Below are positions 7,788 through 38,702 of a stretch of 38,715 bases of DNA, in pieces; position 1 is the stretch's first letter; every line of letters starts with the position of its first letter. The stretch is from NCBI RefSeq assembly GCF_000981445.1, contig NW_012237284.1:1-38715 (forward strand). Reading direction: 5' to 3'. The position numbers were made by a program, and so were the translations under genes. Source of the DNA: Babesia bigemina. Lineage: Eukaryota. Under the pieces are notes generated by a model, which had not been told where the DNA came from, ran no database searches, and saw only the letters and a list, made by a program, of their open reading frames with translations.

Positions 7788-7836
7788 CGTGCCCTGTTCC
7801 AGTTACCCACTGAACCACTCTCACAAAACACCACTG

Positions 7837-8579: not shown

Positions 8580-11500
8580 ATAGTCAAAATTGCCTTCAAA
8601 AATGTTAGTAATTTGGTTAGTAAAACGCTGATCAACTGGTCAAATTGCAATACCATTTTTTGACGGTCCGTCAACGTTTCGTATACAGCAAAAATTATCT
8701 CAATAGAAATTTTTTAGTCCATTCCTAGACTTTACAATTTGCGTTTTTATTTTAATTTAAGGTGTCAGGCTAAGTGCGTAGTTTCGACTATTTTTTGTTT
8801 ATTTTTTTATTTGCACCTGTCCACATAGTTACCTAAATCTCAAAAGATGTTTTATAAATATATTAAGGGAGTTGGAATCTTCTGTGATTTTGGGGGAAAC
8901 TTTGAGAAACGTGTTTTCTCGGGTTTATCACAGAAAGGAAATTTTTCCGATGTCACTGGGGGGTGTATTGAAGGCCAAAAGTGCGGAATTAAAGCGGCAA
9001 CATCGCGAGGCGAAAGGCGGCCACACAGGCGCGCTGGATAGACGAACAAGGTACCAATGGAGAGCTCACAAGAAGTGCAGCTGAGCAGTCAAATCGATGA
9101 GGACGGAGACCTCATGGTTATTGACGTGGACGTCCCCGATGGGATGGACATCGATGCTCCGCTTGCCACCGTGGGGCGCCGAGAGTGTCGGCAACCCGAA
9201 AGGCGGCATGAATCCAGAAAACCGGTACAAAGCGGTGTTCAGGGCCCTAAAGGTAAACCCACAAATTCGAAGGGGGCCGGCCGTGGCGGCGAAAGCCGGC
9301 CAATCCCGCAGGCAAGCCGGAAACGACACCAGCCCGGAACCACTCCGGCTGTGAAGGGCGCTGGAAACAAAGCGCGGAACGGCGGTCCCCAGGGCCAAAA
9401 GGGTAACAACCGGAAGGCCAAAAAGACAGGAAACACGGCTCAAACGCCGCCTGTCGTGGTTTGCAACGCCGGGCCGAGTTCCTCGGAACGCGCACCCGTG
9501 TGTGTGCAGACACTGTCTACCCTGCAGCCACCGGCAGGGGAGGTTGTCGGAAACGGTGGCTGCCGCTCTCCGACCGTGTATTCCATATCGTCGGATGACT
9601 TTATGGACGTGGACGAAGAGGAACCTGAGCAAGTCGGGCCTGTGAGAGAATCAAACAACAGTATAGCACCGGGCACCGCCAGTGAGGTGGCGCTCACTGA
9701 GACGGCTGCGTTGCCGAGGGCACCCGAAGGGCACGCCCCGCAGGCTGAACGGGCCGGGAACACGCCACAAATGCCGCCGAACTACGCTAGGCTGAATGCC
9801 AAGTTACAGTTCCTGCACTGTGTCATGCGTCAGATCGATGGACCATGGTGTCATTGGGTACCGGACGTCTACAAGGCAGTAGTGACGAAGTATCAGAGGA
9901 TGCCACGAGGAGGATGGAAAGTCCTCGCGGAATATGCCAACGAGCATTTCGAATTCCACAAGACCCACAAGGAGGTGGAGCAGATGGCAAGACAGGTAGT
10001 CGCCAAAGCAGCGCGGAGCCAACCGACGGACGTTGGAGAAATAGCATCGCTGCACGACGTCGACTCATACAACGCCCTGCAGGAGGATTTCGACCGGATC
10101 ATGGCACAGAGGTTGAGGGAGCCTGGTGTGATTAGGACAGTAAAGAACAAAAGACACACCATGGACTCCCTCGACTTCACGGCGATAAGGTCGCTGGATC
10201 TAGTGGTCCACAACTACGTGAAGCACAACCCAGTCACTGACATGGGGATGCTAGCCGTCTTGTATCAGACGGCACAGGACTGCTACGACAAGTACAGCGC
10301 AAAACCATCGTCGTCCTCGGGAAAGAAGGAGGCAGCTGAGAGGAGGATCAAGGAGCTGGAGGAGATAGGAGCATTACTTCTGAAATACAAGCAGAAGGTC
10401 CCCCTGGAGAAGGAGGATAGGAAACGCGTTTATCGCCAAATGGACAAGTACAACATGATCGCGGACAAGCCGCAGGAACTGTCATACGTGATCAGCAGGA
10501 CTCAAGAGGAGCTCCAAAAGGAGCAGGACAAACTCAAGAACGCCAAGTTCAAGAAGGAGTTGTACAACGACAACCGCATGTTCGAGCTCTACACGGGACA
10601 CTTCTACAGGACACTGGAGAACAAGCAGGACGCGGACGAGTCGGCGATAAACGAGGGGATGATGATAGAGTACTGGGCGCAAATGTGGGTGAAGCCAAAC
10701 GCACCGCACAACGGTGAAGGATATCTGGTCGAAAGACCACCGGCAGAGAACAAGGCAGGCTTTCCCACATACGAGGAATTCGTCACGATCGTCAAGAAAT
10801 TGCGAGACTGGAAGTCGCCCGGTGCGGATGGGATCTACAACTACTACATTAAATGGCTCACGTCCCTTCACAGAGTCATTTACAGGCTAGTAGAGGAGGC
10901 ATGCCAGCAAGGCAAAGTGCAGGACGACTGGTTCTACTGTGGGATCACGTACCTACTACCGAAGAACAAGAAACCAAAGTCCGCCGCACAGTACAGGCCT
11001 ATCACATGCATGTCCAACCTATACAAGCTAACTACCCGCTGTGCAACGGAGACGCTTAAGCGAGAAGTCGATGGCAGGGGACTACGGTCCGAGAACCAGA
11101 TGGGCACGAGGAGCAACGTACAGGGTGCAAAGGAGCACGCGTTAGCGAACATCGCGCTCAACGAGAAGCACAAGGGGAAGTTACTTGCAACGTGGGTCGA
11201 CGTCATGAAGGCGTACGACTCAATCGACCACGCGTACCTGGCAAGGGTTATCGACAACCTTAACCTACCAGGGTGGTTATCAAACTTCATCAAGCAGACG
11301 ATCAAGAGGTGGAATATAGAGATACGGTGGAACAAGAACACAATCATGCACAAGAAAGTGGAGAGGGGCATTCTCCAAGGCGACAGCCTATCGCCCCTTC
11401 TCTTCGTGCTGTGCTTGGACCCGCTGAGCAGGCACCTGACTCGCATCTTCCCCAAGGTGGAGTTAAGCGTGACCGGCGGCAGGATATTCGCCACAAACCA

Positions 11501-13182
11501 CTTTCTCTATATTGACGACCTCAAGTTCTTCGCCCACGAGGAAAGTACGATGAGAGGAATGGGCCGAGAAGTGGAGAAGTTCTTCAACGACATAGGACTC
11601 AGGATCAACCGCGACAAGTCGGCAACCAACACGGAGGCGTGCGCCAGCATCGCCAAGCAGATGGAAGGCCCGGAAACGTACAAGTACTTGGGAGTCACAG
11701 AGACTTCAAACTCACTGACAAGCGACGGAATGTTCGACATAATACTACAGGAGATATGCAGGAGAACGGAGCTACTGGCTGCGTCAAAGCTGTCGGGGAA
11801 AAACCTCTCGATGGCCATCAACCAGTACGCCCTCAGCGTCATAAACTACTACATAGGCGTGATCCCCATGGACATCACGCACATCGACAGGATTGACTTG
11901 TAGACGCGCACAAGGCTCTCGGCAAAAGATGAACAAGTAACGTGGACGAACACACAACGGCTCTACCTCCCCCGGAAAGAGATGGGGAGAGGGCTCCACA
12001 GCATGGTATTCAGAGCGGAAGCCATGCTGCTACGACTGTGGTTGACGTTTTCAGCAGACGAGGTGACGTCAACCAGGAGGGCTGCGATCATGCAGCATTT
12101 TCGCGACACATACGCGCACATATCTCATATCAAGATGCACCTGGAAGGGAGATATGGAATGGAATTCGGAGTGGAGGACACGACGGACAAGAGCCTCAGG
12201 GACCTCAGGGTGGCCCAAAACAAATGGCTGTACAACAGAATGCACGTAAAATCAACTCATAAGGTTCTGTATGCCAAGCGTGAGGACCCCAAGCTGGACA
12301 TCGAGGCGTCGTCATTGTACCTGACGTGTGGAATACTCACCCCGGAAGAAGAAGCGAAGGTAGCAGAAGTCCAGGACAGGAATCTGCAATGGATGACTTC
12401 GTCCAACAAATGCTCAAGATGCAACAACGGCAAGAACGTGGACCACCTCGCGACGAAGTGCCCGAAACTACTACACCTTGAATATACGAAGAAGCACAAC
12501 GAGGTAGCAAAACGGGTCCACTCAGTACTCGGGAGGCAAATAGGACTACCCAAGGAGAAGATAGACGCCCACAAGATCGAGAGTGAAGTGCACGGAAAAT
12601 ACGGATGGATCGCGTACGACAAGACGGTCAAGACTCAGAAGACTAAGGAATACAACAGGCCAGACATCATCCTGGCGGATCGGCGGAGGAACACCATAAC
12701 CATCGTGGAGATAGGAATCACCAATCAAGACAACCTAGTGGATACGGAGAAGTTCAAGAAGCAGAAGTATGAAGACCTTATCGAGGACCTCAAGGCGCGA
12801 CAGTTTAACCAGCAAACCAAGATCAGGGTTATCCCCTACGTTATGACGTGGGAGGGAATAGTGACAAAGGAGCACAGCAAGTACAGACGGGACCTGGGCA
12901 TATCGGATCGCATGGAAGCCCACATACAAAGGGTAGTGATCCAAGAAACACATAAAATAGTGATGAGGGATATGAAGCCGAAAGAAGACTACGATTCCGT
13001 AGAAGACCCTCAAGCCCAAACTGTATGGATGCCCGCATGGATGGCACCAGTGACGTCCGGCAATGGACCGGCGTGGATCCCGCAACCGGTTTCAGCGTGA
13101 GGCGTTAGCCCCGCAAACACGAAAACCGGCCCAAGGCACGTAGCCACATAGCACACTACAAGATGAGATAACTTAAATTAAT
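8580..13182 (+). mobile_element. Non-LTR retrotransposon copy 1 (RLE-type, R4-like); 5' boundary uncertain
   Basis: Single long RT/endonuclease frame 9057-13100 plus an 82-nt 3' UTR ending ...AACTTAAATTAAT, identical to copy 2. Homology to copy 2 spans 9287-13182. The 5' limit is only guessed from the AT-rich stretch starting near 8580. Confidence 0.88.
9057..13100 (+). pseudogene. Retrotransposon ORF (RT + CCHC + PD-(D/E)xK endonuclease) interrupted by one in-frame TAG at 11901-11903
   Basis: ORFs 9057-11903 and 11982-13100 share a frame. RT motifs: KSPGADGI, YRPITC, DVMKAYDSIDH, GILQGDSLSPLLF, YIDD, YKYLG, then RLYLPRKEMGRGL. C-terminal motifs: CSRC..DHLATKC, KHNEV, RPDIIL..IVEIGIT..KY. 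Confidence 0.92.
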
Positions 13183-13207
13183 AGTGACTGCGTGACGCTA
13201 GAAGAGA

Positions 13208-13414
13208 TTATTGGAGTCTCGGCTTGGAATCACGAAATCCATCACGTATTTGGCGGAATATCTCTCCGAGGCTTACGTTATAAATTTGGCCCATGATGTA
13301 AAGTACCAAGACAAGGAGGGCCGAGAAACCAATGAAGCCGGCGAAAGCAATTCCTAAAAATTTTAAGGCGCAACCAGTTTTGTTGTTGCAAGTGCTACCA
13401 CAGAAGCATGCCAT
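13208..13414 (-). CDS. Small single-TM protein with a Cys-rich N-terminus (about 68 aa from the first ATG)
   Basis: MACFCGSTCNNKTGC, a hydrophobic segment (FLGIAFAGFIGFSALLVLVLYIM) and a basic tail. Same architecture as the ORFs at 14254 and 30905. Confidence 0.55.
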   Translation of the reverse strand: MACFCGSTCNNKTGCALKFLGIAFAGFIGFSALLVLVLYIMGQIYNVSLGEIFRQIRDGFRDSKPRLQ

Positions 13415-13930
13415 CTTCCCGAAACTCACAATACCACTAACCCTGCACAGCTATGAATCACACACCTCAATACTCTAACACCCTCAGCCAACTCGATGCA
13501 CCATGACCATACCCCCACCCCTACCATGCCATCCGCCTTGTGCTGGGGCAACCGTAAATCCGGATATCCCAACGCTGACATGACATGAATATCCAATCCA
13601 GCATGCACTAATAAGACATGTCTTCACCGTGATTTATCACTACAGCGACTAACAATGTATTGTCAACGAGAAGTGCCAGGTCTCTCTAACATCTGCCTTG
13701 TTCCATCCTGCTTATTCTGATATCTGACCAGCTTACCTAAGCCGCTTGCGTGACGTTTCCGATCAGTGCAATGCAGCCACTAAGCACGCCACCATACAGC
13801 ACCATGCCACTTGCTAACCTAACAAATGGCCCATCACGTCACACGGAGCACGACTCATCAGGTGACGGACTTTATTACAACCCGATAAGTTTTACTTTTC
13901 TCTTGATATGAGGTCACCCACCCCAACTAA

Positions 13931-14209
13931 TTAACCAGAGCGATGCCATGTTAGCAGATTTCCATTAACTAAATCTTGCCGGTTAGGTGAGGCTATACTG
14001 GAGTAGAAAGATAGGCGGTGCCTTAGGCGCAGGTTTTGCATCCATTGTAAAACTTTTCGTTGCAATCGCCACTCTCTGTATTTAAGAAGCATAAGCCACA
14101 AACCTTCATTCATCATGAAAATGATGACGGCGGCGATGGCGTGGATGTAAGGGGCGGGGATTGTGATCATCTCGCTGTTCATGTGATTGTTCATCAACGC
14201 AATCATCAC
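13931..14209 (-). CDS. Small hydrophobic ORF or second exon ('MIALM..' module), diverged copy
   Basis: MIALMNNHMNSEMITIPAP..AIAAVII aligns with ORF 30662-30859 and sits in the same position downstream of a Cys-rich ORF. It diverges after about 30 codons. Confidence 0.4.
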   Translation of the reverse strand: MMIALMNNHMNSEMITIPAPYIHAIAAVIIFMMNEGLWLMLLKYREWRLQRKVLQWMQNLRLRHRLSFYSSIASPNRQDLVNGNLLTWHRSG

Positions 14210-14253
14210 TCTGTCTAGACATTAGATATGAGTTGGCAGTTGGGTTATAGTAA

Positions 14254-14583
14254 TCAGCCGCGCAGTAGATACCGCACCCTGTGGAACGGCCGGATGCGGA
14301 AGTAGATCATGACACAGACGACGATGAGGAGAATTATAAAGCATGTGACAGCGACACCTACCGTAACAGGTAGTATGGCTCTTGTTTTACAACAAGGACA
14401 GTCACAATTTGCCCCATATTCATAGTCACATTTTGGACATTCATAACGATCGCAAGCGGTGAGACGCCCTATGTAATAATCGCACGCTTTGCACGCGCCA
14501 TAATTTCTACATCGTTTACAACACCATGGACAGCATATACATCTGCCATTACAGGGTGTGCCACACTTACACCCATCACTCAT
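14254..14583 (-). CDS. Small Cys-rich single-TM protein, 109 aa
   Basis: Dense CxC/CC/CxxC N-terminus, a TM, and the tail VMIYFRIRPFHRVRYLLRG, nearly identical to paralogue 30905-31306. Confidence 0.72.
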   Translation of the reverse strand: MSDGCKCGTPCNGRCICCPWCCKRCRNYGACKACDYYIGRLTACDRYECPKCDYEYGANCDCPCCKTRAILPVTVGVAVTCFIILLIVVCVMIYFRIRPFHRVRYLLRG

Positions 14584-15328
14584 TTTTTTTCTTACCTCTC
14601 CCTACCCATCAACCTACGAACCATGAATCACGTACCTCAGACCCGTACACTGAGCGTCTCCCATCTGCGCCCCAACAATCGGGTGATCGCCATCCGGCGC
14701 ATCGCCACTTACATCACTACTATGCAGCCATCACAACTAAAGTACTACCAACGTAGCGCATGTCGACGCTGTCCTGGCCGTGACATGCAGGTTAGCGGGT
14801 ACCAGTTCCTCGGCGAACTCCATCCACCACAGGCCGACGTTACCAATGCGTACGACTGCTGTTACATATGTGTTGTAATGAGTTCCTGAGTGAGATACAC
14901 GTCCTCATTAGTATGTCTCTTATGTACGCTGCTACCACCAATGCCACCTAACTACGCCGTCCATTGGCCATCACGTAGGAGAGTAGCTGTGGCATTTCCA
15001 GGTGACGTACATTGCCTACACGGCAACTAGTAACTCTACAACAACATAGTAACTCACCTGCTATGGCCATCGCCAGCTGCCTACGTTGGTGGCCAACAGC
15101 ACAGCTCCACCTATCACTTACAGAGTGGTACTATGCGAAGACATGTAAAGGGTTATGCAAAACTCAGATCACCACACTGTATCATCCATTAAGTTGGCAA
15201 CATGAACCAGGTTATGCCTGGCGGCAGTGACGCTTTTTTCACACCATGATGCCGCAGGTGCTGGAGTAACACAACTACTACTACAGCGCAACCTATTGCG
15301 ATGTAAAATGACTACATTAATGTGATAA

Positions 15329-18300
15329 CTATTGAACTGCAAGTTGACCAATAGCGTCCTCGTCGAAGTAGTCGACGTCTTAGAGTGATAGCATCTTCCC
15401 GCCTTTAGTGAGTAGCGCCTTGACGTCGATGAGATGGTAGGCCTTGGTGGTCAGGAGATGTGATCGGATGCAGAGGACGTCCGGGCGGTAGAGGAAAGTG
15501 TGGAGTAGGTACAGCGCCACGAGAGACCACAGTGCGATGGAGCAGTAGAAGAAAGGCATCCGTATGTGCCACATGAGTTTGACGATTTGCCGGAACAATT
15601 CAGTGAAGTGGCCAGAGTGCAGCGCCTTTCTGAGTTGTGCGTTGAGGTCTCCGCAGCGTATGCCAACGTTTTCAGTGACCAGGAGATCTGCGTTACTATA
15701 CGTGAATCCGTAACGTTAGAGGGTTGGCAGTGGCCCGGCGCACTGGACGATGGAAGGGCAGTGGCAGGTATCCTTCCCACCGTGGGTGCCGGGTTTACAG
15801 GGGCATGTGGCACACCCGGACGCCGTGCAGTCGATGTTATCCAGCGCGTGGAGTAAGTCACATAGCAACTCCCAGAATCGCCATGCCAGGTACATTATCC
15901 ACGTGATGTGTAGCCCGGCGTGCTTCTGCGGGTAGGTGTGATGGGCGTGGAGTCCTAGGGGTTGGAGGTAGGGAGCGCATCCACGGGGTGACTTGCAAGT
16001 GGAGTCGTGGAAGAGGGTGGACAACGCATTGTGGTTTTTGTGGCCATGGCCGGAGAGTGATGCGATGGCACTAGTGAGCTGGTGATTTTCATAACTGCCA
16101 TGGAGCAGTGTCCACAGTGGGAAGAGGCTGTCGATGCCGTCAGTGTTGAGGTGCGATATGAAATTGGAGGCATCGGTGTACGTGCCGCCACGGTGCTCAA
16201 CACGGTCATGAGAGTCCCACTTCCGAAGCAGCTGAGCATACAATGCAAACACGTCGGCGAGTGATGACGGTGCAGCGGGACACGACAAGAACAGAGTCCA
16301 ACAGAGCACGAACAGGCATGAATCGGAGTCACGGCACATATCGCCGAGGCGCTTGGCGAGATCTAACCCGGTGCCACTTATGGAGGCAGCAAAGCCAAGG
16401 TCCCAGAAGCCGAGCGGAGTGAGGCACTGCTGGCCGAGTTGGTTGGAGGTGCAGTTGGCACATTCGATGACCATGTCAGCAGCGGTAAGGGTATGCGGCA
16501 GAAGTCCGTGGCAGCAGTCACAGAGGAACGACTGGAGCGGCGAGGTGGGCGGGCAGCCGTGAATGGTGGTGGTGGAGGAAGTGGTAGTTGTAGTAGTTGC
16601 AGCAGTAGTAGTACTGATAGTACTAGAGTAAGTGCCGATTTGTTTACACTGCCAGTGGTGTGACTGCACCTGCCGGCCGTACGCGCACTCCCGCCACCCC
16701 TTGACCCGGGCGGTGCTGCGGCAGCACTGGGAGTACAGGAAGTAGAGCACTCTACTAAGACGGCATGCTATCTCACGTAGCATATCAAGCAGCGCATCTG
16801 GTTCATAGGGGTAGTGGAGCTTGGCACGGTTGTTGGAGGAGTCCGCCGAATACGGGTAGGCGGCGAAGTCGATGCCGTGGCCGTTGCCCTGGATGGCGGT
16901 GAGCAGTGCGGTGGAGTGTGAACATGTTGTTGCGATGGTATATGGTAGCTCATCAATGCACTTGGCCATGACAGAATCGTCCCTGTTGGGTGTGTCGCTG
17001 TCGTGGCATCGGCGGTCGAGCAGAGCCTTGCAGTGGCCTGGCAGCTTGTTCGCCACCTGTGTATACTGCAGCCCGGAGAGCCACGACAGCATGTCCCTGA
17101 CCGTGCAGGGGTATCGTGGCTCAGGGGGAGCAGGGATGTGGCAGACCTGGAAGTATTGACATAAGAGGTTGTGGAGCAGCGACATGATGGTGACCAAGTT
17201 GATTCCATTTTCCAATGGCTCACCGTCAATCATCATCTCGATAGCCACACCCTCAATTGGAGTTGCAAGTAACTCGTATATCCCACCGCCAGTAAACATG
17301 TTGTTCAACTCGCCGTCTTGCCCACTGTCGGAACTAGACACCCTGTACCCGCACCTGGTGAGGTAGTTGCCAAGTGGGTTATCCCTCTCGTCAGCAGTGA
17401 ACTTACTAATGTGAAGTGCTTTACACTCACCTTCACATTTCGTCGCCAACTTGGTAAGCGCTTGGTGCGTCATAGGTATAATGCTGAGGAACACCTTAGC
17501 GTACTTGTGGGCGTGTTCCTCCCTGCACCGCTGACCGGAGTAGGTGGAGATGTAAGTGTTGCCGAGCTCACCGGTGAATTTGGAGAGACCAATAGAGACA
17601 GTGTCGAGCAGCGGAGTGGACGGGTGCTTGAAGTAGAAGGGTGCCATATTACTCAGCGCCTTGCTCAGCCTCTCAACCAGCTCGGTGAGTCTGTCGGTAC
17701 CTCTATCATTGTCCCTTAGGTAGGCGAGCAGCGCAGTGAGCGCGTCATAAACATCATTGAGCTTGGGCGTGTAGGGCTCTTTGGTTGGTGGCAAAGAGGG
17801 ATTCTTCTCCTTGTTTTGCTCATCGTGCAGCCTGGTGATTTCCCCTGCGACATACTTCTCAATTTGCTCGAACACCTCCTGGAATGCGGATGATAATTCT
17901 GCGACGCTCTGTTCCTCACCTGTTAGATCGGAGCGCAGCGGTCGTTGCAAGTACTTCATGAACCCTTTATAGCCCACGTACCTATCCCTGTTTATCTCAT
18001 GTGGCAGCAGGTTTAAATCCTCGTTGACTTTCTTGGCAAACAATTCCAACGCCTCCCTCAGCGAGTCCACGTACAGCCCACGGGCTTCCTTGGTGAGGTC
18101 CTTGATGGCGTCGTCCACCTCACAGTCGACGTGCTTCAAAAGGGCATGGACGGTGTTCTTCTCTATCTCGTCGGCTTTATCAAGGAAGTCGTCACACAAC
18201 CTGATGGCTTCGGCAAGGTCGGTGAGTCGGAGGTTGGTGAGACCACCTTGTATGCCTTTGAGTTTCCCGTCAATATGCGGAATCTCAAGCTGGTTCAGAT

Positions 18301-19517
18301 TCCAGCCAGCATAGGCACCAGCTTTTTGGATGGCTAAGCTCATCTTACCTAAATTGTCAGTGATCCCTTTGCCCTGGTCGTTCTTGAGGGACTCCATTTC
18401 ACGTTTGATTTTCTTAAGGCCTTCATTGTCACTTCGACCAATGTGTTTTGTCATGAATTCCAGATTCTTGACTACGCCTCGATATTTGGGATCCTCGCTG
18501 TCCGTGCCCTGCAACTCGGTTCGGAGACTCTGAAGTTCGTCAGTTATCTCCTTCATACCTGAGCTTATTATTTCGGGTTGGTGGGATAACTGATTTTGTT
18601 GACTCTGAACATTGCGCTTAATATGGTCGAAGCCCTTGACATTTTTCCCATTCCATTGCTCACTGCCACCGAACTCCTTGTCCAGGAGATCAGTTAACAT
18701 AGTGCTAACTTCATCTTGTAATTCACCTTTAAGCTTCTTAAGATCCTTTTCAATTTCTTCCTTTGCTTGTCCGATTTCTTTGAGTCTATTAGTAAAAGCA
18801 TTTGCCTGCAGACTACTAATCTTTTTTTTGATTTCTTGAAGACTTCCATCGTCACTTTTAGCAAGACCAATACCAATCTTCCTTTGCAGCAGCTGTAAGT
18901 TGTGCACAATGTCATCTTCAGGAATGAGTTCATGACTCAATTTCTTTCTAACATTTCGGAGAACACTTTGGGTTTGTTGCAGTACACTCTCGGTTGCTTG
19001 TTCAATGTTTTCACTTGCCTCAGACAACTGCGTATTCTTCTCATGGAGTTCATTGTTGATTTTACTGAGACCATCTTTACTATTTTGCCACTCCTCACCA
19101 CCAAGTCCTTTCGTTAACAAGTCTCCCAACCTGTTTATCAGACTATTATTAGGACTTCCAGACTCGCTTTTTAACTCTTTTCTAAGCTCTTCAAGCACAG
19201 TGGTAATGAGGTGGACGCCAGAGCCGAGTAGTGTGGGCTGGCCGGTCAACCAATTCAAGTGAAGTTGAAGTTCCTTTTCAATTAACTCATGGCCTTTTTC
19301 GTTATAGTATTTCTGCCATTTACCATTGCCAAGACCGGTACCCCTCAAATCCTTGATTGTCTCAATGACTTCATTGTTCAACAGATGGTGAAGCACTGCA
19401 AGCTTACGTCTGATTACGCCGACGGCTAGGCCGATGTCCCTGGGTTTCTCACTAAAATGCTTTGCCTGTTGCTTGCTAATCTCCGTAAGTATGCTCATGA
19501 GATTATTTTGATATTTG
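15329..19517 (-). pseudogene. VESA-related large antigen pseudogene (coiled-coil N-region), 5' end replaced by retrotransposon copy 2, two in-frame TAA
   Basis: The frame is open from the element junction at 19517 to TAA 15716-15718. It continues in frame (RYGFTYSN...IALWSLVALYLL...IRSHLLTTKAYHLIDVKALL) to TAA 15380-15382, then DVDYFDED to the natural TAG at 15329-15331. Confidence 0.85.
16563..16628 (-). repeat. Thr/Ser-rich trinucleotide-like tract inside the antigen pseudogene
   Basis: Encodes SSTISTTTAATTTTTTSSTTT. Confidence 0.6.
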
Positions 19518-22500
19518 ATTAATTTAAGTTATCTCATCTTGTAGTGTGCTATGTGGCTACGTGCCTTGGGCCGGTTTTCGTGTTTGCGGGGCTAACGCCT
19601 CACGCTGATACTGGTTGCGGGTTCCACGTCGGTCCATTGCCGGACGTCACTGGTGCCATCCATGCGGGCATCCATACAGTTTGGGCTTGAGGGTCTTCTA
19701 CGGAATCGTAGTCTTCTTTCGGCTTCATATCCCTCATCACTATTTTATGTGTTTCTTGGATCACTACCCTTTGTATGTGGGCTTCCATGCGATCCGATAT
19801 GCCCAGGTCCCGTCTGTACTTGCTGTGCTCCTTTGTCACTATTCCCTCCCACGTCATAACGTAGGGGATAACCCTGATCTTGGTTTGCTGGTTAAACTGT
19901 CGCGCCTTGAGGTCCTCGATAAGGTCTTCATACTTCTGCTTCTTGAACTTCTCCGTATCCACTAGGTTGTCTTGATTGGTGATTCCTATCTCCACGATGG
20001 TTATGGTGTTCCTCCGCCGATCCGCCAGGATGATGTCTGGCCTGTTGTATTCCTTAGTCTTCTGAGTCTTGACCGTCTTGTCGTACGCGATCCATCCGTA
20101 TTTTCCGTGCACTTCACTCTCGATCTTGTGGGCGTCTATCTTCTCCTTGGGTAGTCCTATTTGCCTCCCGAGTACTGAGTGGACCCGTTTTGCTACCTCG
20201 TTGTGCTTCTTCGTATATTCAAGGTGTAGTAGTTTCGGGCACTTCGTCGCGAGGTGGTCCACGTTCTTGCCGTTGTTGCATCTTGAGCATTTGTTGGACG
20301 AAGTCATCCATTGCAGATTCCTGTCCTGGACTTCTGCTACCTTCGCTTCTTCTTCCGGGGTGAGTATTCCACACGTCAGGTACAATGACGACGCCTCGAT
20401 GTCCAGCTTGGGGTCCTCACGCTTGGCATACAGAACCTTATGAGTTGATTTTACGTGCATTCTGTTGTACAGCCATTTGTTTTGGGCCACCCTGAGGTCC
20501 CTGAGGCTCTTGTCCGTCGTGTCCTCCACTCCGAATTCCATTCCATATCTCCCTTCCAGGTGCATCTTGATATGAGATATGTGCGCGTATGTGTCGCGAA
20601 AATGCTGCATGATCGCAGCTCTCCTGGTTGACGCCACCTCGTCTGCTGAAAACGTCAACCACAGTCGTAGCAGCATGGCTTCCGCTCTGAATACCATGCT
20701 GTGGAGCCCTCTCCCCATCTCTTTCCGGGGGAGGTAGAGCCTCTGTGTGTTCGCCCACTTCTTGTGTCCGTGCTTCGCGTTAATTATTCTCCGTACTGCC
20801 AGGTCGATCTTGTCGAAATGCGTGATGTCCATGGGGATCACGCCGATGTAGTAGTTGATGACGCTGAGGGCGTACTGGTTGATGGCCATCGAGAGGTTTT
20901 TCCCCGACAGCTTTGACGCAGCCAGTAGCTCCGTTCTCCTGCATATCTCCTGTAGTATTATGTCGAACATTCCGTCGCTTGTAAGTGAGTTTGAAGTCTC
21001 TGTGACTCCCAAGTACTTGTACGTCTCCGGGCCTTCCATCTGCTTGGCGATGCTCACGCACGCCTCCGTGTTGGTTGCCGACTTGTCGCGGTTGATCCTG
21101 AGTCCTATGTCGTTGAAGAACTTCTCCACTTCTCGGCCCATTCCTCTCATCGTACTTTCCTCGTGGGCGAAGAACTTGAGGTCGTCAATATAGAGAAAGT
21201 GGTTTGTGGCGAAGACCCTGCCGCCAGGCACGCTTAGCTCCACCTTGGGGAAGATGCGAGTCAGGTGCCTGCTCAGCGGGTCCAAGCACAGCACGAAGAG
21301 AAGGGGCGATAGGCTGTCGCCTTGGAGAATGCCCCTCTCTACTTTCTTGTGCATGATTGTGTTCTTGTTCCACCGTATCTCTATATTCCACCTCTTGGTC
21401 GTCTGCTTGATGAAGTTTGATAACCACCCTGGTAGGTTAAGGTTGTCGATAACCCTCGCCAGGTACGCGTGGTCGATTGAGTCGTACGCCTTCATGACGT
21501 CGACCCACGTTGCAAGTAACTTCCCCTTGTGCTTCTCGTTGAGCGCGATGTTAGCTAACGCGTGCTCCTTTGCACCCTGTACGTTGCTCCTCGTGCCCAT
21601 CTGGTTCTCGGACCGTAGTCCCCTGCCATCGACTTCTCGCTTAAGCGTCTCCGTTGCACAACGGGTAGTTAGCTTGTATAGGTTGGACATGCACGTGATA
21701 GGCCTGTACTGTGCGGCGGACTTTGGTTTCTTGTTCTTCGGTAGTAGGTACGTGATCCCACAGTAGAACCAGTCGTCCTGCACTTTGCCTTGCTGGCATG
21801 CCTCCTCTACTAGCCTATAAATGACTCTGTGAAGGGACGTGAGCCATTTAATGTAGTAGTTGTAGATCCCATCCGCACCGGGCGACTTCCAGTCTCGCAA
21901 TTTCTTGACGATCGTGACGAATTCCTCGTATGTGGGAAAGCCTGCCATGTTCTCTGCCGGTGGTCTTTCGACCAGGTATCCTTCACCGTTGTGCGGTGCG
22001 TTTGGCTTCACCCACATTTGCGCCCAGTACTCTATCATCATCCCCTCGTTTATCGCCGACTCGTCCGCATTCTGCTGATTCTCCAGTGTCCTGTAGAAGT
22101 GTCCCGTGTAAAGCTCGAACATGCGGTTGTCGTTGTACAACTCCTTCTTGAACTTGGCGTTCTTGAGTTTGTCCTGCTCCTTTTGGAGCTCCTCTTGGGT
22201 CCTGCTGATCACGTATGACAGTTCCTGCGGCTTGTCCGCGATCATGTTGTACTTGTCCATTTGGCGATAAACGCGTTTCCTATCCTCCTTCTCCAGGGGA
22301 ACCTTCTGCTTGTATTTCAGAAGTAATGCTCCTATCTCCTCCAGCTCCTTGATCCTCCTCTCAGCTGCCTCCTTCTTTCCCGAGGACGACGATGGTTTCG
22401 CGCTGTACTTGTCGTAGCAGTCCTGTGCCGTCTGATACAAGATGGCTAGCATGCCCATGTCAGTGACTGGGTTGTGCTTCACGTAGTTGTGGACCACTAG

Positions 22501-23413
22501 ATCCAGCGACCTAATCGCCGAGAAGTCGAGGGAGTCCATGGTGTGTCTTTTGTTCTTTACTGTCCTAATAACACCAGGCTCCCTCAACCTCTGTGCCATG
22601 ATCCGGTCGAAATCCTCCTGCAGGGCGTTGTATGAGTCGACGTCGTGCAGCGATGCTATTTCTCCAACGTCCGTCGGTTGGCTCCGCGCTGCTTTGGCGA
22701 CTACCTGTCTTGCCATCTGCTCCACCTCCTTGTGGGTCTTGTGGAATTCGAAATGCTCGTTGGCATATTCCGCGAGGACCTTCCATCCTCCTCGTGGCAT
22801 CCTCTGATACTTCGTCACTACTGCCTTGTAGACGTCCGGTACCCAATGACACCATGGTCCATCGATCTGACGCATGACACAGTGCAGGAACTGTAGCTTG
22901 GCATTTAGCCTCGCGTAATGCGGCGGCATTCGTGGCGTGTTCCCGGCCCGTTCAGCCTGCGGGGCGTGCCCTTCGGGTGCCCTCGGCAACGCAGCCGTCT
23001 CAGTGAGCGCCACCTCACTGGCGGTGCCCGGTGCTATACTGTTGTTTGATTCTCTCACAGGCCCGACTTGCTCAGGTTCCTCTTCGTCCACATCCATAAA
23101 GTCATCGGACGATATGGAATACACGGTCGGAGAGCGGCTGCCACCGTTTCCGACAGCCTCCCCTGCCGGTGGCTGCAGGGTAGACAGTGTCTGCACACAC
23201 ACGGGTGCGCGTTCCGCGGAACTCGGCCCGGCGTTGCAGACTGCGACAGGCGGCGTTTGAGCCGTGTTTCCTGTTTTTTTGGCCTTCCGGGTGTTACCCT
23301 TTTGGCCCTGGGGACCGCCGTTCCGCGCTTTGTTTCCAGCGCCCTGTACAGCCGGAGTGGTTCCGGGATGGTGTCGTTTCCGGCTTGCCTGCAGACTTGG
23401 CCGGCTTTCGCCG
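19518..23413 (-). mobile_element. Non-LTR retrotransposon copy 2, 5'-truncated, inverted relative to copy 1
   Basis: The reverse complement matches 9287-13182. Homology ends sharply at 23413 (5' end, inside the ORF) and 19518 (3' end). No poly(A) tail or target-site duplication is visible. Confidence 0.95.
19600..23202 (-). CDS. Reverse transcriptase / restriction-like endonuclease of copy 2 (RT, CCHC and RLE intact; original start lost; first in-frame ATG at 23097, 1165 aa)
   Basis: Uninterrupted frame with all catalytic motifs (YIDD; RPD..E..K). The frame stays open up to the truncation at 23413. Confidence 0.9.
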   Translation of the reverse strand: MCVQTLSTLQPPAGEAVGNGGSRSPTVYSISSDDFMDVDEEEPEQVGPVRESNNSIAPGTASEVALTETAALPRAPEGHAPQAERAGNTPRMPPHYARLNAKLQFLHCVMRQIDGPWCHWVPDVYKAVVTKYQRMPRGGWKVLAEYANEHFEFHKTHKEVEQMARQVVAKAARSQPTDVGEIASLHDVDSYNALQEDFDRIMAQRLREPGVIRTVKNKRHTMDSLDFSAIRSLDLVVHNYVKHNPVTDMGMLAILYQTAQDCYDKYSAKPSSSSGKKEAAERRIKELEEIGALLLKYKQKVPLEKEDRKRVYRQMDKYNMIADKPQELSYVISRTQEELQKEQDKLKNAKFKKELYNDNRMFELYTGHFYRTLENQQNADESAINEGMMIEYWAQMWVKPNAPHNGEGYLVERPPAENMAGFPTYEEFVTIVKKLRDWKSPGADGIYNYYIKWLTSLHRVIYRLVEEACQQGKVQDDWFYCGITYLLPKNKKPKSAAQYRPITCMSNLYKLTTRCATETLKREVDGRGLRSENQMGTRSNVQGAKEHALANIALNEKHKGKLLATWVDVMKAYDSIDHAYLARVIDNLNLPGWLSNFIKQTTKRWNIEIRWNKNTIMHKKVERGILQGDSLSPLLFVLCLDPLSRHLTRIFPKVELSVPGGRVFATNHFLYIDDLKFFAHEESTMRGMGREVEKFFNDIGLRINRDKSATNTEACVSIAKQMEGPETYKYLGVTETSNSLTSDGMFDIILQEICRRTELLAASKLSGKNLSMAINQYALSVINYYIGVIPMDITHFDKIDLAVRRIINAKHGHKKWANTQRLYLPRKEMGRGLHSMVFRAEAMLLRLWLTFSADEVASTRRAAIMQHFRDTYAHISHIKMHLEGRYGMEFGVEDTTDKSLRDLRVAQNKWLYNRMHVKSTHKVLYAKREDPKLDIEASSLYLTCGILTPEEEAKVAEVQDRNLQWMTSSNKCSRCNNGKNVDHLATKCPKLLHLEYTKKHNEVAKRVHSVLGRQIGLPKEKIDAHKIESEVHGKYGWIAYDKTVKTQKTKEYNRPDIILADRRRNTITIVEIGITNQDNLVDTEKFKKQKYEDLIEDLKARQFNQQTKIRVIPYVMTWEGIVTKEHSKYRRDLGISDRMEAHIQRVVIQETHKIVMRDMKPKEDYDSVEDPQAQTVWMPAWMAPVTSGNGPTWNPQPVSA

Positions 23414-24663
23414 TGAAAGGTGCCACCTCACAAATAGTGGAACCAGAGTTGTGAACAATGGTAGGTGCGGGCGAGGATCGGGGAAATATTGGTTTACCAG
23501 GCAATGTGGCAGTCACATAACGCAACAGTATCAACGCGTCGATTTTGCGATATCTGGTGAGAGTAGCGGGATGTAGAATCTGCCGGCCATGGGGAATGAT
23601 AATGTCGAACGATGCGGGAACCACGATGAAAGCCCCGTAGATATTGTTCGAAACATTTCAAGACCATTTGACCAGAATGACACGTACGAAGAGCATGACA
23701 CACGTCGGCGTGACTCTGTATGGCACTGTATATACCAAGTGAGGTTACTCGTTGTAGGTCACTCGCAGATGTATGCGCTGAGTGGCTCCAAAAAACACGC
23801 GCTAACATGCCAATGGCATTGTGGCATAGCAATTAATATACAATGCAACTGTCCCTATTACACAAGTCCAATTATGCAGCGTTACGCGCTCTAAGTGTCC
23901 TACCCTGAGGTCTGTAGCTACATCGTACACGTCTTAGGCAATAGGGCTGTTATACTACCTTGACGCATCGTGTATGTCTTCTCATGACAATAACAAACCT
24001 ATCGCTGGTCATCGTGTAGAACACATCAAAGGAAGTTCAGAACTTCGGCGACTACCTCCGCAAGTTGAGATTATTTACGCATTACGGCGGTACTGACACC
24101 GAAACTAATACTTTTCCCCGCACATAACGCACGTACATTTATACGCTCCTGTTTATTTAATGGCACTGGCAACTGAAAAAAACGGCAAAGTCGTGGAGTC
24201 ATGGAGGCAACGTCGGGCGCGTCGACATGGGTGTTGAGGGTGCGCGCATGAAACAAAAGCGAAGGAACATCTAGGATGTTGACTTCATATTGTTATTAAC
24301 GTAGTATATATGTATATGAATATGTATCGCAATTTGGGGGACTAGTAGGGCAACAAAGCCATTCCGAGCGTAGAAGCTACAGACTTCAGTGCAGGATGTG
24401 ATAGCGAGCATGTTTACCGCTACTTAAATATATGTGGGAGTCTCATGTGGCGGATATTGTCTATATTCGTGTGCCAGATATGGTTTAACGTGCGCCACGT
24501 CACATTGTTGGCATAGGTGCGTAGCAACTACAGCTGCAAAAGGCAGAGGTTTGAAATGTAGTATAATTATCGCAGCCTAAATGCAGTTACGATTTCGCAA
24601 CGTTGAACACAGGTAGCAACTGCAGTGCCCTTATGGAGTAACTAATGTGAACAAGACTCGAAA

Positions 24664-27166: not shown

Positions 27167-29400
27167 TTAGGCGGCGGGGGTTTTGCTTTCGGTAGCAATT
27201 GCCAGAGATTCGTAGTGGGATTTGACTTTGCAATCCGCGACGCAGGTTTTTTCGTGGCAACGTGATCCAGCAGATGTAAAGTTTGCGCAGCATTCCTTGT
27301 ATAACTGCTCAAGCAACTTGTATAATGTCTCAGTAAGATACACTATCCACGATAGATACTTGTCTGCGTTCCCCTTTGAAAACACCGTCCATGTGTTCAT
27401 GCCAAAAGGTTGCAAGTACCGGCCGCAGTTGGTGACCGAGATGTTGTCACCGCCACAAACAAGACTTAACAAGTCACGATTTTTGTTATGCTCCGAATGA
27501 TTACGATCGAACAGAAGTGATACGTTCATATCTGTGTATCGTTCTCCGAAATAAGCTTTGGTGACTGCATCATCAAATGCATCCTCCCTGTGCGCCTTGT
27601 CGTCGTCCTTGCCTTGTCCTTTAATCTGCCACCCATACAGGAAATTATAGTAAAAGGCAAACATGTCACCTAATGTCTTAGGCGGCGTACTTAATAAGCA
27701 CGTCAAATATTTACACAATTGGCTAAGAGGGCTACCCGCGTTTCCACAGAATCTTTCGAGAGCGTTCCCAATGTGCTCGCCTTGCTTAGTATGCGATGCA
27801 ACGTTGCTAATGTTACCAAAGCCTAGTGGCGTTTTGCACGAAATTCCGGCGTGATTGCTCACCGAACATTTTACGCCGCAGCCAACTTTTGTAAGTTGAT
27901 GTGGAAGGAACCCTTGTAAGCCGTCTTCCAAAAACGACTGCAAGGGTGACTTGATACCGCACTTAGGGTGCTGGTCACAGGTTTGCCTAGCGATTTGGTT
28001 AGCATTTTGGTTACTCTCTTGGTCAGCCCTTTGGGGACATGCTTGGTTAGCACATTGCTTATCGTTGCACCGCCAGTCAGATCCACCGACGTACCTACCA
28101 TACCAGCAGTCGCGCCAACTGTTCGCGGCCTCGGTGCTTTGACACTGCGTCAATAAAAAGCATAATTGCTCATGCACTCGATGTGATACGTCTACGAGCA
28201 TATCGAAGCATGATGCAGCGTGACTCGGATATTCCAGTTTTTCCGCGTTCGTGCGGAAGTCAACAGCTTAACGTCCACCAGCGTGACCGTGGCCGAGGAA
28301 TGCAAGCAATACTTCATGAGAGTACAAAGTAACGTCTGTCAATATTCTGCCTGCTAAGTTTACGTACGTAAAATCTGTGGTAGCGAGAAGCTTCATTTTG
28401 TCGCGATGAATGTCCTTGTAATCCTTGTGCTTGTCTTCCTCCGGTTTGGGGAATGATTCCTTGAAGCACATGTAAAGTGGTCTAAGAACAGGATTATGCC
28501 GTATGCCGCAGAGCCATAGTAGCATCTGATATATGTTACACGGCTGCTTAGGTGATGAGATACGCTCCATGTGGCTAACTTCGTAGTATGTGCCAAGGTA
28601 GCCGACGAGGTTCCGAAGGACACTATATAACTTACTAGCAGACGGATCATACCGTTCGTCAGCGTCGTTAACAAGTCTAAATTTGTTTCCTTTGGGCGAC
28701 ATATTTCGTTCTTTTACGAGTAACTCAGTGTAAATCTGCTGACCTGTTAACTCCTTATTACGCAATTCACCGTTGTGGTTGTCCTTGTCATCGGACACCT
28801 CGAAGCCACGTCCCTTAAACCAAGCACCAAATGCGTTCTTATTTCTATGGCCACTATTCACATCATACATACAGATATGTTTAGTTTTGCACTGAACGTT
28901 ATTCTTGCATAGTTTTCTCAATTGACTCAGATCATGATAGAGCGTCTCCAAAATCGTCAGGCAGACCTTGGCGCAGTTGCGGCCCTCAGGGGTTAAAACA
29001 GTTTCAGGGGTGGTGAGTTGTTTTGAATCAGCAGCAGGGTTTTTAGTACTAGACTGAGTAACTAAAGCCCCGTTGAAATGTTTACCCGAGTACCTGTTCA
29101 CGTACGCGAGGCCGAGTTGCGCGGCGAAGTTGGAGAGGCCGCGCTTGAGGGGGGCGAGGAGGAGGGGGGCGAGGAGGGGGGAGGGAAGGTCACCAAACTT
29201 TTTGGGAGCAAAGTTGTCAAGGGCGTTTTGGAGGTCATTTAGGTTACTGTGGAAGGTGTGGTCGAAGTGGTGGACATTAAGATGACCAAAATTTGGTCGA
29301 GTTCGGTTAAGGTAATTTTTTTGGAGGCGATTTAGGCAAATTTTAGGGGTCGAAGAAATTGTGCAAAATTAGGTGAAAGGGCAGTCAGGGAGGTTAAGGG
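27167..29400 (-). pseudogene. Internal fragment of a VESA-related ('ebh'-type) antigen gene, truncated at both ends, in-frame TAA at 28268-28270
   Basis: ORFs 28268-29101 and 27167-28201 share a frame and align with the C-half of 32582-38014 (NCAK.., GELRN, IYQM..WL, GHGHAGGR, KSPLQSFLEDGLQGFLPH, TLGDMFAFYY, YLSWIVYL). No C-terminal TM. The upstream limit is approximate. Confidence 0.85.
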
Positions 29401-29591: not shown

Positions 29592-30395
29592 GCGATGTAG
29601 AGTGGATAAGGGGCGATGTAGAGTGGATAAGGGGCGATGTAGAGTGGATAAAGGGGCGATGTGGAGTGGGTTAAGGGGCGATGTGGAGTGGGTTAAGGGG
29701 CGATGTAGAGTGGGTTAAGGGGCGATGTAGAGTGGGTTAGGGAGCGATGTAGAGTGGGTTAGGGAGCGATGTAGAGTAGGTTAGGGAGCGATGTAGAGTG
29801 GATAAAGGGGCGATGTAGAGTGGGTAAAGGGGCGATGTAGAGTGGGTTAAGGGACGATGTAGAGTGGGTTAGGGAGCGATGTAGAGTGGGTTAGGGAGCG
29901 ATGTAGAGTGGGTTAGGGAGCGATGTAGAGTGGATAAAGGAGCGATGTAGAGTGGATAAAGGAGCGATGTAGAGTGGGTTAGGGAGCGATGTAGAGTGGA
30001 TTAGGGAGCGATGTAGAGTGGTTAAAGGGGCGATGTAGGGTGGGTTAGGGAGCGATGTGGAGTGGGTTAGGGAGCGATGTGGAGTGGATAAAGGGGCGGT
30101 GTGAAGTGGATTAGGGAGCGATGTAGAGTGGATAAGGGGCGATGTAGAGTGGATAAGGGGCGATGTAGAGTGGATAAGGGAGCGATGTAGAGTGGGTTAG
30201 GGAGCGATGTAGAGTGGGTTAGGGAGCGATGTAGAGTAGGTTAGGGAGCGATGTAGAGTGGATAAAGGGGCGATGTAGAGTGGGTAAAGGGGCGATGTAG
30301 AGTGGGTTAAGGGACGATGTAGACTGGATAAAGGGGCGATGTGGAGTGGGTTAAGGGGCGATGTGGAGTGGGTTAAGGGGCGATGTAGAGTGGAT
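29592..30395. repeat. 21-22-bp G-rich minisatellite GCGATGTAGAGTGG(GTTAGGGA/ATAAAGGG), about 37 units
   Basis: Directly visible tandem array. Many units contain GGGTTAGGG. Confidence 0.95.
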
Positions 30396-38014: not shown

Positions 38015-38044
38015 AGCGGTAATATGGCAAGGTGATTCGAGGGT

Positions 38045-38583: not shown

Positions 38584-38596
38584 ATAATCACCACTT

Positions 38597-38702
38597 GTGA
38601 CCATGTCGTCGCTGCCGTAACCATGTCATCGCTGCCGTGACCATGTCATCGCTGCCGTGACCATGTCATCGCTGCCGTGTCCATGTCATCGCTGCCGTAA
38701 CC
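38597..38702. repeat. 20-bp tandem repeat, 5 copies (CCATGTCATCGCTGCCGTGA)
   Basis: Same unit and same CTTAACTTGGTCAG flank as 30432-30510. Confidence 0.92.

What the first reader, a model, noticed from the sequence alone, without database searches (positions are those of the whole stretch)
19600..21800. Retroelement protein resembles microsporidian R4-like elements, a candidate horizontal transfer
Seen: C-terminal motifs 'VEIGITNQDNL..TEK.K..KYE.L', 'IPYVMTWEGIVTK.H..Y' and 'EAHIQ..V...T'. From memory these closely parallel RT/endonuclease proteins of microsporidia such as Hamiltosporidium and Nosema; this is unverified recall. Inference: transfer between co-infecting intracellular parasites in an arthropod (tick) host is plausible.
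Basis: inference. Interest (0 to 1): 0.75.

Follow-up and report, generated by a model that had tools for sequence, protein, structure and literature searches.

The report
Babesia retrotransposon borrowed from microsporidia
A cattle blood parasite (Babesia) carries a jumping gene whose protein falls, in family trees, inside a group found mostly in microsporidia (unrelated fungus-like parasites), so its ancestors likely picked it up by horizontal transfer, possibly inside a shared animal host such as a tick.

Summary
The window is Babesia bigemina DNA (98% to annotated proteins). It holds two inverted, 97.6%-identical copies of a ~4.3-kb single-ORF non-LTR retrotransposon: RT, CCHC finger and an R2-like restriction-like endonuclease. 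In ML trees, including a site-mixture model, Babesia elements form one clade (100/100). It nests inside a 100/98 clade with Vairimorpha, Hamiltosporidium, Nucleospora and Pancytospora; Enteropsectra and Dictyocoela elements branch outside. Microsporidian monophyly without Babesia is rejected (p-AU 0.005). No tick, vertebrate or non-piroplasm alveolate appears among named hits. LINEs in Babesia and T. equi are already published (PMC9141347), but ten searches found no paper on a microsporidian origin. Three things remain open. The donor lineage is not identified (polytomy). A tick setting is untested, and mite-like animal contigs carry the same clade, so an animal intermediate is possible. One versus two transfers (T. 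equi) is unresolved (p-AU 0.18).

The parts
19519..23413 (-). Retrotransposon copy 2: 5'-truncated (lacks the 5' UTR and the first ~77 codons); reading frame intact over the rest
   Evidence: Ungapped 3896-nt, 97.6% match to copy 1. Three runs continue into the missing 5' part at 23413.
19600..23427 (-). Single ORF, 1275 aa stop to stop; first Met at 23097 gives the 1165-aa annotated product
   Evidence: 97.5% identical to the full-length 1347-aa B. bigemina copy P0110
21988..22935 (-). All-helical N-terminal region (residues 165-480), conserved in the clade at about 14-36% identity; no Cys/His zinc finger found
   Evidence: AlphaFold pLDDT 84.9, pTM 0.54; no PDB fold match at E<=0.001; zinc-finger regex empty; alignment A4
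21001..21726 (-). Reverse transcriptase core (Pfam RVT_1), catalytic YIDD at 21181-21192
   Evidence: nearest solved structures are R2 and LINE-1 proteins
20239..20289 (-). CCHC zinc knuckle (C1047, C1050, H1058, C1063)
   Evidence: C1050, H1058 and C1063 invariant in 63 of 63 rows of A3
19750..20043 (-).
   Evidence: Model of residues 960-1250 (pLDDT 88) matches only R2 retrotransposon structures at E<=0.001 (7 of 7; best 3e-8)
19519..19599 (-). Short 3' UTR ending in an AT-rich AATTAA terminus; no poly(A)
   Evidence: the end at 13181/19519 is shared with runs X2, X4, X5
8867..13181 (+). Retrotransposon copy 1: full length (~4315 bp, 5' UTR ~190 nt, ATG at 9057), interrupted by a stop at 11901-11903 inside a 41-nt divergent patch (11901-11941)
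   Evidence: 5' end from loose ends in X2 and X5 at 8867 and an X1 piece starting at 8864
15356..19528 (-). Host gene between the two copies, starting right after the 3' end of copy 2; ves/VESA-like by recall only
   Evidence: 67% identical to the non-RT part of B. bigemina P0118. Pfam gave no family, so the ves label is recalled and comes from no call.

Best explanation
This is one copy of a multi-copy, single-ORF non-LTR retrotransposon (reverse transcriptase plus R2-like endonuclease) in Babesia bigemina whose protein nests among microsporidian elements, and it was likely acquired by an ancestor of Babesia through horizontal transfer from a microsporidian, possibly in a shared host such as a tick. 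How it works (inferred from R2-type structures, not assayed): the protein binds its own RNA, the endonuclease nicks AT-rich host DNA, and the RT copies the RNA from its AATTAA 3' end using the nick as primer (target-primed reverse transcription). This gives 5'-truncated copies and short target duplications. History: the transfer is old (before B. divergens, B. caballi, B. ovata and B. bigemina split), the element has since evolved in Babesia, and it was copying itself recently in B. bigemina. Shown: architecture, integration, multi-copy state, nesting in the tree. Inferred: horizontal transfer and its direction, TPRT, recent activity. Untested: the tick setting and the donor species.
For: Architecture. 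Real Babesia DNA: relatives lie on 0.8-4.0 Mb contigs of B. bigemina, B. ovata, B. caballi, B. divergens and T. equi. Four independent runs cover the element, with many different flanks. Nesting: LG+G4, 67 rows, Babesia 100/100 inside a 99/98 and a 100/99 clade. C20-PMSF, 39 rows, inside 100/98, 100/99, 97/95 and 100/100 clades. Still nested at 100/98 and 97/95 after dropping all 5 Dictyocoela rows, the 7 in-clade rows without an organism name and 2 long outgroups (25 rows). AU tests reject microsporidian monophyly without piroplasms (p 1.4e-5) and without Babesia (p 0.0048, mixture model). Named hits: 41 of 107 rows named (9 piroplasm, 23 microsporidian, 6 animal-labelled, 2 bacterial MAG, 1 plant at E 2e-4); 49 of 120 listed (15, 25, 7 animal, 2 MAG; 348 hits in all); 40 of 120 listed (13 piroplasm, 27 microsporidian; 146 in all). 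These span eight microsporidian genera, with no tick, vertebrate or other alveolate. An index-free HMMER scan of 1.84 billion representatives found nothing nearer to Babesia than this clade among its best 150 rows; 20 short rows were left out of the tree and checked by BLAST. Babesia versus microsporidia (40-45% for the inner-clade genera) exceeds Babesia versus Dictyocoela elements (31-33%). Age: Babesia elements are monophyletic, 51-58% identical between species and 78% for the bigemina-ovata pair. GC3 is 0.69, against 0.33-0.61 in three unnamed inner-clade relatives. Recent activity: four full-length 1347-aa proteins at 99.8-99.9% identity; pN/pS about 0.25 between the two window copies outside the patch (30 non-synonymous/2916 sites, 33 synonymous/816 sites); loose 5' ends at 8 or more positions; an 11-bp repeat on both flanks in run X5. 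Ticks do host microsporidia (PMC8760655, abstract).
Against: No microsporidian sequence is sister to the Babesia clade; it sits in an unresolved polytomy with unnamed environmental sequences (P0005, P0015, P0051, P0205) whose hosts could not be determined. The clade is not purely microsporidian: L006 and L011 are intron-rich, AT-rich animal-type contigs (PHF3-like neighbour, best PDB hit PHD finger protein 3 at E 1.8e-20; ankyrin gene with GT-AG introns) that group with the Dermatophagoides-labelled protein. Octopus- and Polistes-labelled proteins are also inside the clade, and contamination could not be told from real insertion. The element tree does not follow the microsporidian species tree (recalled: Enteropsectra and Pancytospora are close relatives, yet their elements are far apart), so paralogy or transfer within microsporidia complicates rooting arguments. 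Transposon proteins of ticks are often unannotated (recalled), so their absence from protein databases is weak evidence. Microsporidia were rare in the I. ricinus survey (0.8% of unfed, 3.2% of fed ticks; PMC8760655, abstract). The window's own copies show no convincing target duplication (only TCA for copy 2). Several rows differ in amino-acid make-up.
Confidence: 0.68

Rival explanations
1. The clade is microsporidian in origin, but the immediate donor to Babesia was an animal genome (tick or other acarine) that had itself taken the element from a microsporidian.
For: Mite-like animal contigs carry integrated members of the clade (L006, L007, L011). Octopus- and Polistes-labelled proteins lie on 100-650 kb contigs. 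T. equi pairs with the Polistes-labelled protein at 98/97 under LG+G4. Piroplasms live inside tick cells (established knowledge).
Against: The mite group is sister to an Enteropsectra element and lies well outside the 100/98 clade that holds Babesia. No tick-labelled hit appears among 41, 49 and 40 named rows. The T. equi-Polistes pairing dissolves under the mixture model.
Confidence: 0.17
2. The donor was another, unsequenced eukaryote (for example a rozellid or protist) represented among the unnamed environmental sequences at the same polytomy.
For: Unnamed ~1140-aa ORFs on 3.5-4.5 kb contigs score as high as or higher than named microsporidia, and several lie at the polytomy with Babesia. 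Their contigs hold no host gene or Rfam RNA.
Against: Many unnamed rows pair tightly with named microsporidia: P0017 with V. apis, P0032 with Pancytospora, P0038 with V. necatrix (100/91-100/100). Nesting holds when the unnamed in-clade rows are dropped.
Confidence: 0.1
3. Vertical inheritance: an ancient paralogous lineage retained in piroplasms and microsporidia and lost everywhere else.
For: Non-LTR elements with this endonuclease are ancient. PMC9141347 (passages) considered presence in the Babesia-Theileria ancestor with later losses. Microsporidian elements show deep paralogy in our trees.
Against: It needs 40-52% identity kept over 450-750 aa across the split between eukaryotic supergroups, more than Babesia shares with Dictyocoela elements. 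It also needs loss in every other alveolate and fungus among the named hits. AU tests reject a sister position.
Confidence: 0.04
4. Assembly contamination of the Babesia genome with microsporidian DNA.
For: Similar proteins appear in bacterial MAGs and perhaps in animal assemblies, so this clade does contaminate databases.
Against: Two copies are embedded among host genes in this contig. Copies lie on Mb-size contigs of five piroplasm species and form a Babesia-specific clade. Independent runs carry the element at mostly 90-99% identity with varied flanks.
Confidence: 0.01

Closest known systems
LINE-like elements of Babesia bigemina, B. ovata, B. divergens and Theileria equi (Rodriguez & Makalowski 2022, PMC9141347; abstract, passages, section 3.2 and Table S1 seen; Tables S2-S6 not held)
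   Same: Same species set; almost certainly the same repeat family (0.97% of the B. bigemina genome in their Table 2). B. caballi and B. ovata RT-motif expansions are also noted in PMC10463595 (passage).
   Different: That paper gives no clade for the B. bigemina element (B. divergens: 'LINE R2' by MGEScan) and no source. 'Microsporidia' and 'horizontal' occur 0 times in its main text. It leaves one gain versus two gains open.
Microsporidian LINE/Dong-R4 elements (de Albuquerque et al. 2020, PMC7313128; passages and rows of supplementary files 4 and 5 seen)
   Same: In Nosema apis BRL 01 the only LINE class scored is Dong-R4 (47% of TEs), and in Hamiltosporidium it is 12-24%. Proteins of these genomes are the nearest named non-piroplasm relatives (41-45% identity).
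   Different: The Babesia protein has a ~180-aa low-complexity N-terminal extension (1347 aa versus ~1140 aa), higher GC3 and a long stem branch (0.69 substitutions per site). The Dong-R4 label is a RepeatModeler class and was not tied to individual proteins.
R2 retrotransposon proteins (PDB 8gh6, 8iby, 9dou, 9nl2, 9nl3)
   Same: Single ORF with RT, CCHC knuckle and restriction-like endonuclease; the C-terminal fold matches at E 3e-8.
   Different: No N-terminal zinc finger found and no fold match of the N-terminal region to R2; not inserted in rDNA (no Rfam match in the window).
Horizontal transposon transfers between microsporidia and animals (Parisot et al. 2014, PMC4202319; passages)
   Same: Microsporidia acting as donors of transposable elements.
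   Different: The donor cases named in the passages seen are DNA transposons (Merlin) moving to animals. Here a non-LTR retrotransposon has reached an alveolate parasite.

Membership tests
RLE-type non-LTR retrotransposon | Single ORF with non-LTR reverse transcriptase and catalytic (Y/F)xDD | tested here: met
   RVT_1 E 2.6e-30, YIDD at residue 746; nearest solved structures R2 and LINE-1
RLE-type non-LTR retrotransposon | C-terminal CCHC knuckle followed by a PD-(D/E)xK restriction-like endonuclease | tested here: met
   Motifs at residues 1047-1063 and 1129-1169; the fold matches R2 structures only
RLE-type non-LTR retrotransposon | Dispersed copies with a shared 3' end and variable 5' truncation, no LTRs | tested here: met
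   Two window copies with different flanks; many different 5' loose ends in runs X1, X3, X4; no terminal direct repeat among the 20 of 22 families shown
RLE-type non-LTR retrotransposon | Target-site duplication | tested here: inconclusive
   An 11-bp repeat on the 5' and 3' flanks in run X5, but on two separate contigs; none convincing for the two window copies
RLE-type non-LTR retrotransposon | Target-primed reverse transcription activity | not testable with these tools
   Needs a biochemical assay
R4/Dong clade | RT phylogeny groups it with named R4, Dong, Rex6, EhLINE references | tested here: inconclusive
   No named reference could be fetched. The outgroups are unnamed except one Callosobruchus protein; some have (TAA)n or (TACA)n flanks, Dong-like by recall. 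Indirect support: N. apis LINEs are all scored Dong-R4 and its protein is in the clade.
R4/Dong clade | No N-terminal CCHH zinc fingers or protease (unlike R2, NeSL; feature recalled) | tested here: met
   No Cys/His finger pattern in residues 1-500; no Pfam domain other than RVT_1
R4/Dong clade | Sequence-specific target (28S rDNA for R4, microsatellites for Dong; recalled) | tested here: not met
   No Rfam RNA in the window and no microsatellite at the junctions; flanks differ among copies
Horizontally transferred transposon | Phylogenetic nesting within a distant lineage, alternative rejected | tested here: met
   AU p 1.4e-5 and 0.0048
Horizontally transferred transposon | Patchy distribution in the recipient's relatives | tested here: met
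   Named alveolate hits only from four Babesia species and T. equi; absent from B. bovis and other Theileria per PMC9141347 (passages). Only listed rows were seen.
Horizontally transferred transposon | Element divergence lower than host-gene divergence | not tested
   No genomes of the two hosts were held; only element-versus-element identities were compared
Horizontally transferred transposon | True integration in the recipient genome | tested here: met

The most novel reading that the evidence does not exclude
Microsporidia are serial donors of this retrotransposon clade across eukaryotic supergroups. They passed it twice independently to tick-borne piroplasms (once to Babesia sensu stricto, once to Theileria equi, whose element is 46-52% identical to inner-clade microsporidian elements but only 38-42% to Babesia's), and also to mites. 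In B. bigemina the element is still mobile and sits among variant-antigen genes, where it supplies reverse transcriptase and dispersed homology for their rearrangement.
Probability: 0.25. Interest if true: 0.82.

Novelty: new member of a known kind. Interest (0 to 1): 0.66.

Why it matters
Apicomplexan genomes are nearly free of transposons, and the patchy LINEs of Babesia and T. equi were left unexplained between ancestral loss and fresh invasion (PMC9141347). A microsporidian source answers that in favour of invasion. It would be a transfer of a non-LTR retrotransposon between two unrelated lineages of obligate intracellular parasites, and it makes specific predictions for tick and tick-microsporidian genomes. 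Near-identical full-length copies point to a recently mobile element in an apicomplexan. That bears on genome plasticity at variant-antigen loci, where gene movement is frequent and a retro-origin of ves1-alpha has been suggested (PMC4066756, passages). The element itself and its mechanism are of a known kind.

Tried and rejected
No whole genome was held for the window, so copy number, flank pairs and target preference could not be counted genome-wide.

A first guess of a 6-bp target duplication placing the 5' end near 8576 was dropped when runs put the end at 8864-8867. Swapped flanks between the two window copies were checked by eye and gave no duplication. The 41-nt patch in copy 1 is not an inversion and has no 14-mer match elsewhere in the window.

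No RNA holder was listed by the run search; this says nothing on expression, and only contigs could be laid, so depth is not copy number.

Viral contigs: 0 of 100 pattern matches were relatives. Genome contigs: 2 of 30, both short MAG contigs, read as contamination. Rfam: 0 matches in 16 sources. ESM Atlas: only generic RVT_1 clusters. The N-terminal model found no fold match; the wider VIA search was not run.

Naming unnamed representatives mostly failed: 3 of 10 clusters had an organism name (two Dictyocoela, one bacterial MAG) and 1 of 10.

The T. equi + Polistes pairing (98/97) is not relied on, since it vanished under the mixture model. Piroplasm monophyly was neither recovered (2-6% of bootstrap trees) nor rejected (p-AU 0.18, LG+G4 only).

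Heinz 2012 (PMC3486916) and Mikhailov 2017 (PMC5381614) report ancestral microsporidian non-LTR elements (passages), but T. hominis has no Dong-R4, so those may be another family; they are not used as support. PMC13465657 links B. bigemina to BovB and L1, which are different elements (passages). PMC4053351, PMC5753468, PMC6944219, PMC12558613 and PMC12914980 (passages) held nothing on this link.

Full report
Observation. The ORF has a Pfam RVT_1 domain (E 2.6e-30) with YIDD, then a CCHC knuckle and a PD...E...K-type region. An AlphaFold model of residues 960-1250 (pLDDT 88) matches only R2 retrotransposon structures at E<=0.001 (7 of 7). The N-terminal region is helical, with no zinc finger and no fold match.

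Host and anatomy. The protein is 98% identical to annotated Babesia bigemina proteins. Its two 90% clusters hold 14 proteins, with full-length 1347-aa members on 2.8 and 3.5 Mb contigs that are 99.8-99.9% identical to each other. The window carries a second, inverted copy, ungapped over 3896 nt at 97.6%. Public runs fix the element ends at 8864-8867 and 13181 (copy 1, ~4315 bp); copy 2 (19519-23413) is 5'-truncated. Copy 1 is interrupted by a stop in a 41-nt divergent patch. Outside the patch the copies differ at 33 of 816 synonymous and at most 30 of 2916 non-synonymous sites, a ratio near 0.25. Runs X1, X3 and X4 show element fragments ending at many different 5' positions with unrelated flanks (19 loose ends shown, 15 more not shown). 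Run X5 has the same 11 bases on a 5' and a 3' flank, on separate contigs. The window's copies show no convincing duplication. This is the anatomy expected from target-primed reverse transcription (mechanism as summarised in PMC5753468, passage); activity was not assayed.

Relatives. Three indexed searches listed 107, 120 (of 348) and 120 (of 146) proteins, of which 41, 49 and 40 carry an organism name. Named rows are piroplasms (B. bigemina, B. ovata, B. caballi, B. divergens, T. equi) and microsporidia of eight genera (Vairimorpha, Nosema, Hamiltosporidium, Enteropsectra, Pancytospora, Nucleospora, Dictyocoela, Astathelohania). The rest are a few Octopus-, Polistes- and Dermatophagoides-labelled proteins, two bacterial MAG contigs and one distant plant protein. 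None is from a tick, vertebrate or other alveolate. An index-free HMMER scan of 1.84 billion representatives (best 150 seen) showed the same picture: full-length clade members score 329 bits or more and the next group 305 or less, at about 30% identity. In a 189-row FastTree (20 short rows dropped and checked by BLAST) no new row fell nearer to Babesia.

Trees. With 67 rows and 732 columns under LG+G4, six Babesia proteins form a 100/100 clade inside a 99/98 clade with Vairimorpha, Hamiltosporidium, Nucleospora, Pancytospora, T. equi and unnamed rows. Enteropsectra, the Octopus-labelled rows, a mite group and Dictyocoela branch successively outside. With 39 rows and 680 columns under LG+C20 PMSF the nested branches hold at 100/98, 100/99, 97/95 and 100/100. 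They hold at 100/98 and 97/95 when the 5 short-contig Dictyocoela rows, 7 unnamed in-clade rows and 2 long outgroups are removed. Forcing the 13 named microsporidian rows together against piroplasms and outgroups is rejected (p-AU 1.4e-5; against Babesia alone under the mixture model p 0.0048). The root rests on mostly unnamed outgroups (one Callosobruchus protein). Babesia has no resolved sister. T. equi is closer to inner-clade microsporidian elements (46-52%) than to Babesia's (38-42%) and never joins Babesia in the best trees, but their union is not rejected (p-AU 0.18).

Results against the simple story. Metagenome loci L006 and L011 carry clade members amid intron-rich, AT-rich animal-type genes (TFIIS_M plus SPOC with best PDB hit PHD finger protein 3; an ankyrin gene with GT-AG introns). 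These, with L007, group with the Dermatophagoides-labelled protein. So the clade has entered animal, probably mite, genomes, and an acarine intermediate for Babesia cannot be excluded, although this group is not near Babesia. The hosts of the best-scoring unnamed sequences are unknown. Ticks carry microsporidia only rarely in one survey (PMC8760655, abstract). The element tree does not track the microsporidian species tree (species relations recalled).

Most likely account. A microsporidian retrotransposon invaded an ancestor of Babesia sensu stricto, and either the same or a second event seeded T. equi. The element then diversified with its hosts (51-58% between species, 78% for the bigemina-ovata pair, two lineages in B. 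ovata). It was lost in B. bovis (absence per PMC9141347, passages) and was recently copying itself in B. bigemina. Odds: microsporidian as immediate donor 0.68, animal intermediate 0.17, other unknown eukaryote 0.10, vertical 0.04, contamination 0.01.

Known versus new. LINE-like elements in these species are published (PMC9141347: abstract, passages, section 3.2, Table S1; Tables S2-S6 were not held and might give finer classes; PMC10463595: passage). Microsporidian LINEs scored as Dong-R4 are published (PMC7313128: passages, supplementary rows), as is microsporidia-animal transposon exchange (PMC4202319: passages). Ten full-text searches returned no paper, among those listed or read in passages, that links the piroplasm elements to microsporidia. 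Subscription journals and Repbase were not searchable. R4-clade membership is indirect only, and the rDNA or microsatellite targeting of R4 and Dong is not seen here.

Verdict. A real element of a known kind with a well-supported and apparently unreported origin from the microsporidian clade; the route and the tick setting remain hypotheses. Interest 0.66.

Noticed in passing
L006:8534-12178, L011:3-1604, L007:626-4048: Members of the same retrotransposon clade sit in intron-rich, AT-rich animal-type contigs (PHF3-like and ankyrin-gene neighbours) and group with a Dermatophagoides-labelled protein, sister to an Enteropsectra element: a candidate separate transfer from microsporidia to mites.
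   Followed up: partly
P0050 cluster (Theileria equi): Thirteen proteins at 90% identity, several full length (1312-1314 aa) and nearly identical, so T. equi also has a young family; it is closer to microsporidian elements than to Babesia's.
   Followed up: partly
window 11843-11958: Copy 1 has a same-length divergent tract with a stop; its translation shares residues with the B. ovata element P0163 rather than with other B. bigemina copies, suggesting gene conversion from an older subfamily.
   Followed up: partly
window 8867-23413: The two copies face each other as 4-kb inverted repeats around a ves-like gene (label recalled), and copy 2 ends about 20 nt before that gene's first ATG. Annotated fusions of the element with host genes exist: P0118 (4034 aa), P0116, and B. 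caballi P0045 with VESA1_N.
   Followed up: partly
window 1-2171: Long 12/24-bp tandem array (about 182 units of 12 bp) at the contig start.
   Followed up: no
window 29592-30393 and 38045-38702: The same 22-bp and 20-bp tandem arrays occur twice about 8.1-8.5 kb apart, upstream of long minus-strand host ORFs, suggesting a duplicated locus unit.
   Followed up: no
window 2328-7802, 27167-29368, 32582-38098: Further long ORFs related to the gene between the two copies (26-30% to P0118), one split by a stop at about 28268; no Pfam family passed its cut-off.
   Followed up: no
L016, L018, L022: Outgroup elements flanked by (TACA)n or (TAA)n microsatellites, Dong-like by recall.
   Followed up: no
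P0037, P0046, P0218, L077, L078: Members of this eukaryotic clade are filed under bacterial MAG names on 1.5-4.2 kb contigs, i.e. binning contamination.
   Followed up: no
P0059, P0066, P0175 and relatives (Octopus sinensis), P0062 (Polistes dominula): Several lineages of the clade under animal labels on unplaced-size contigs; real insertion versus microsporidian contamination not resolved.
   Followed up: no
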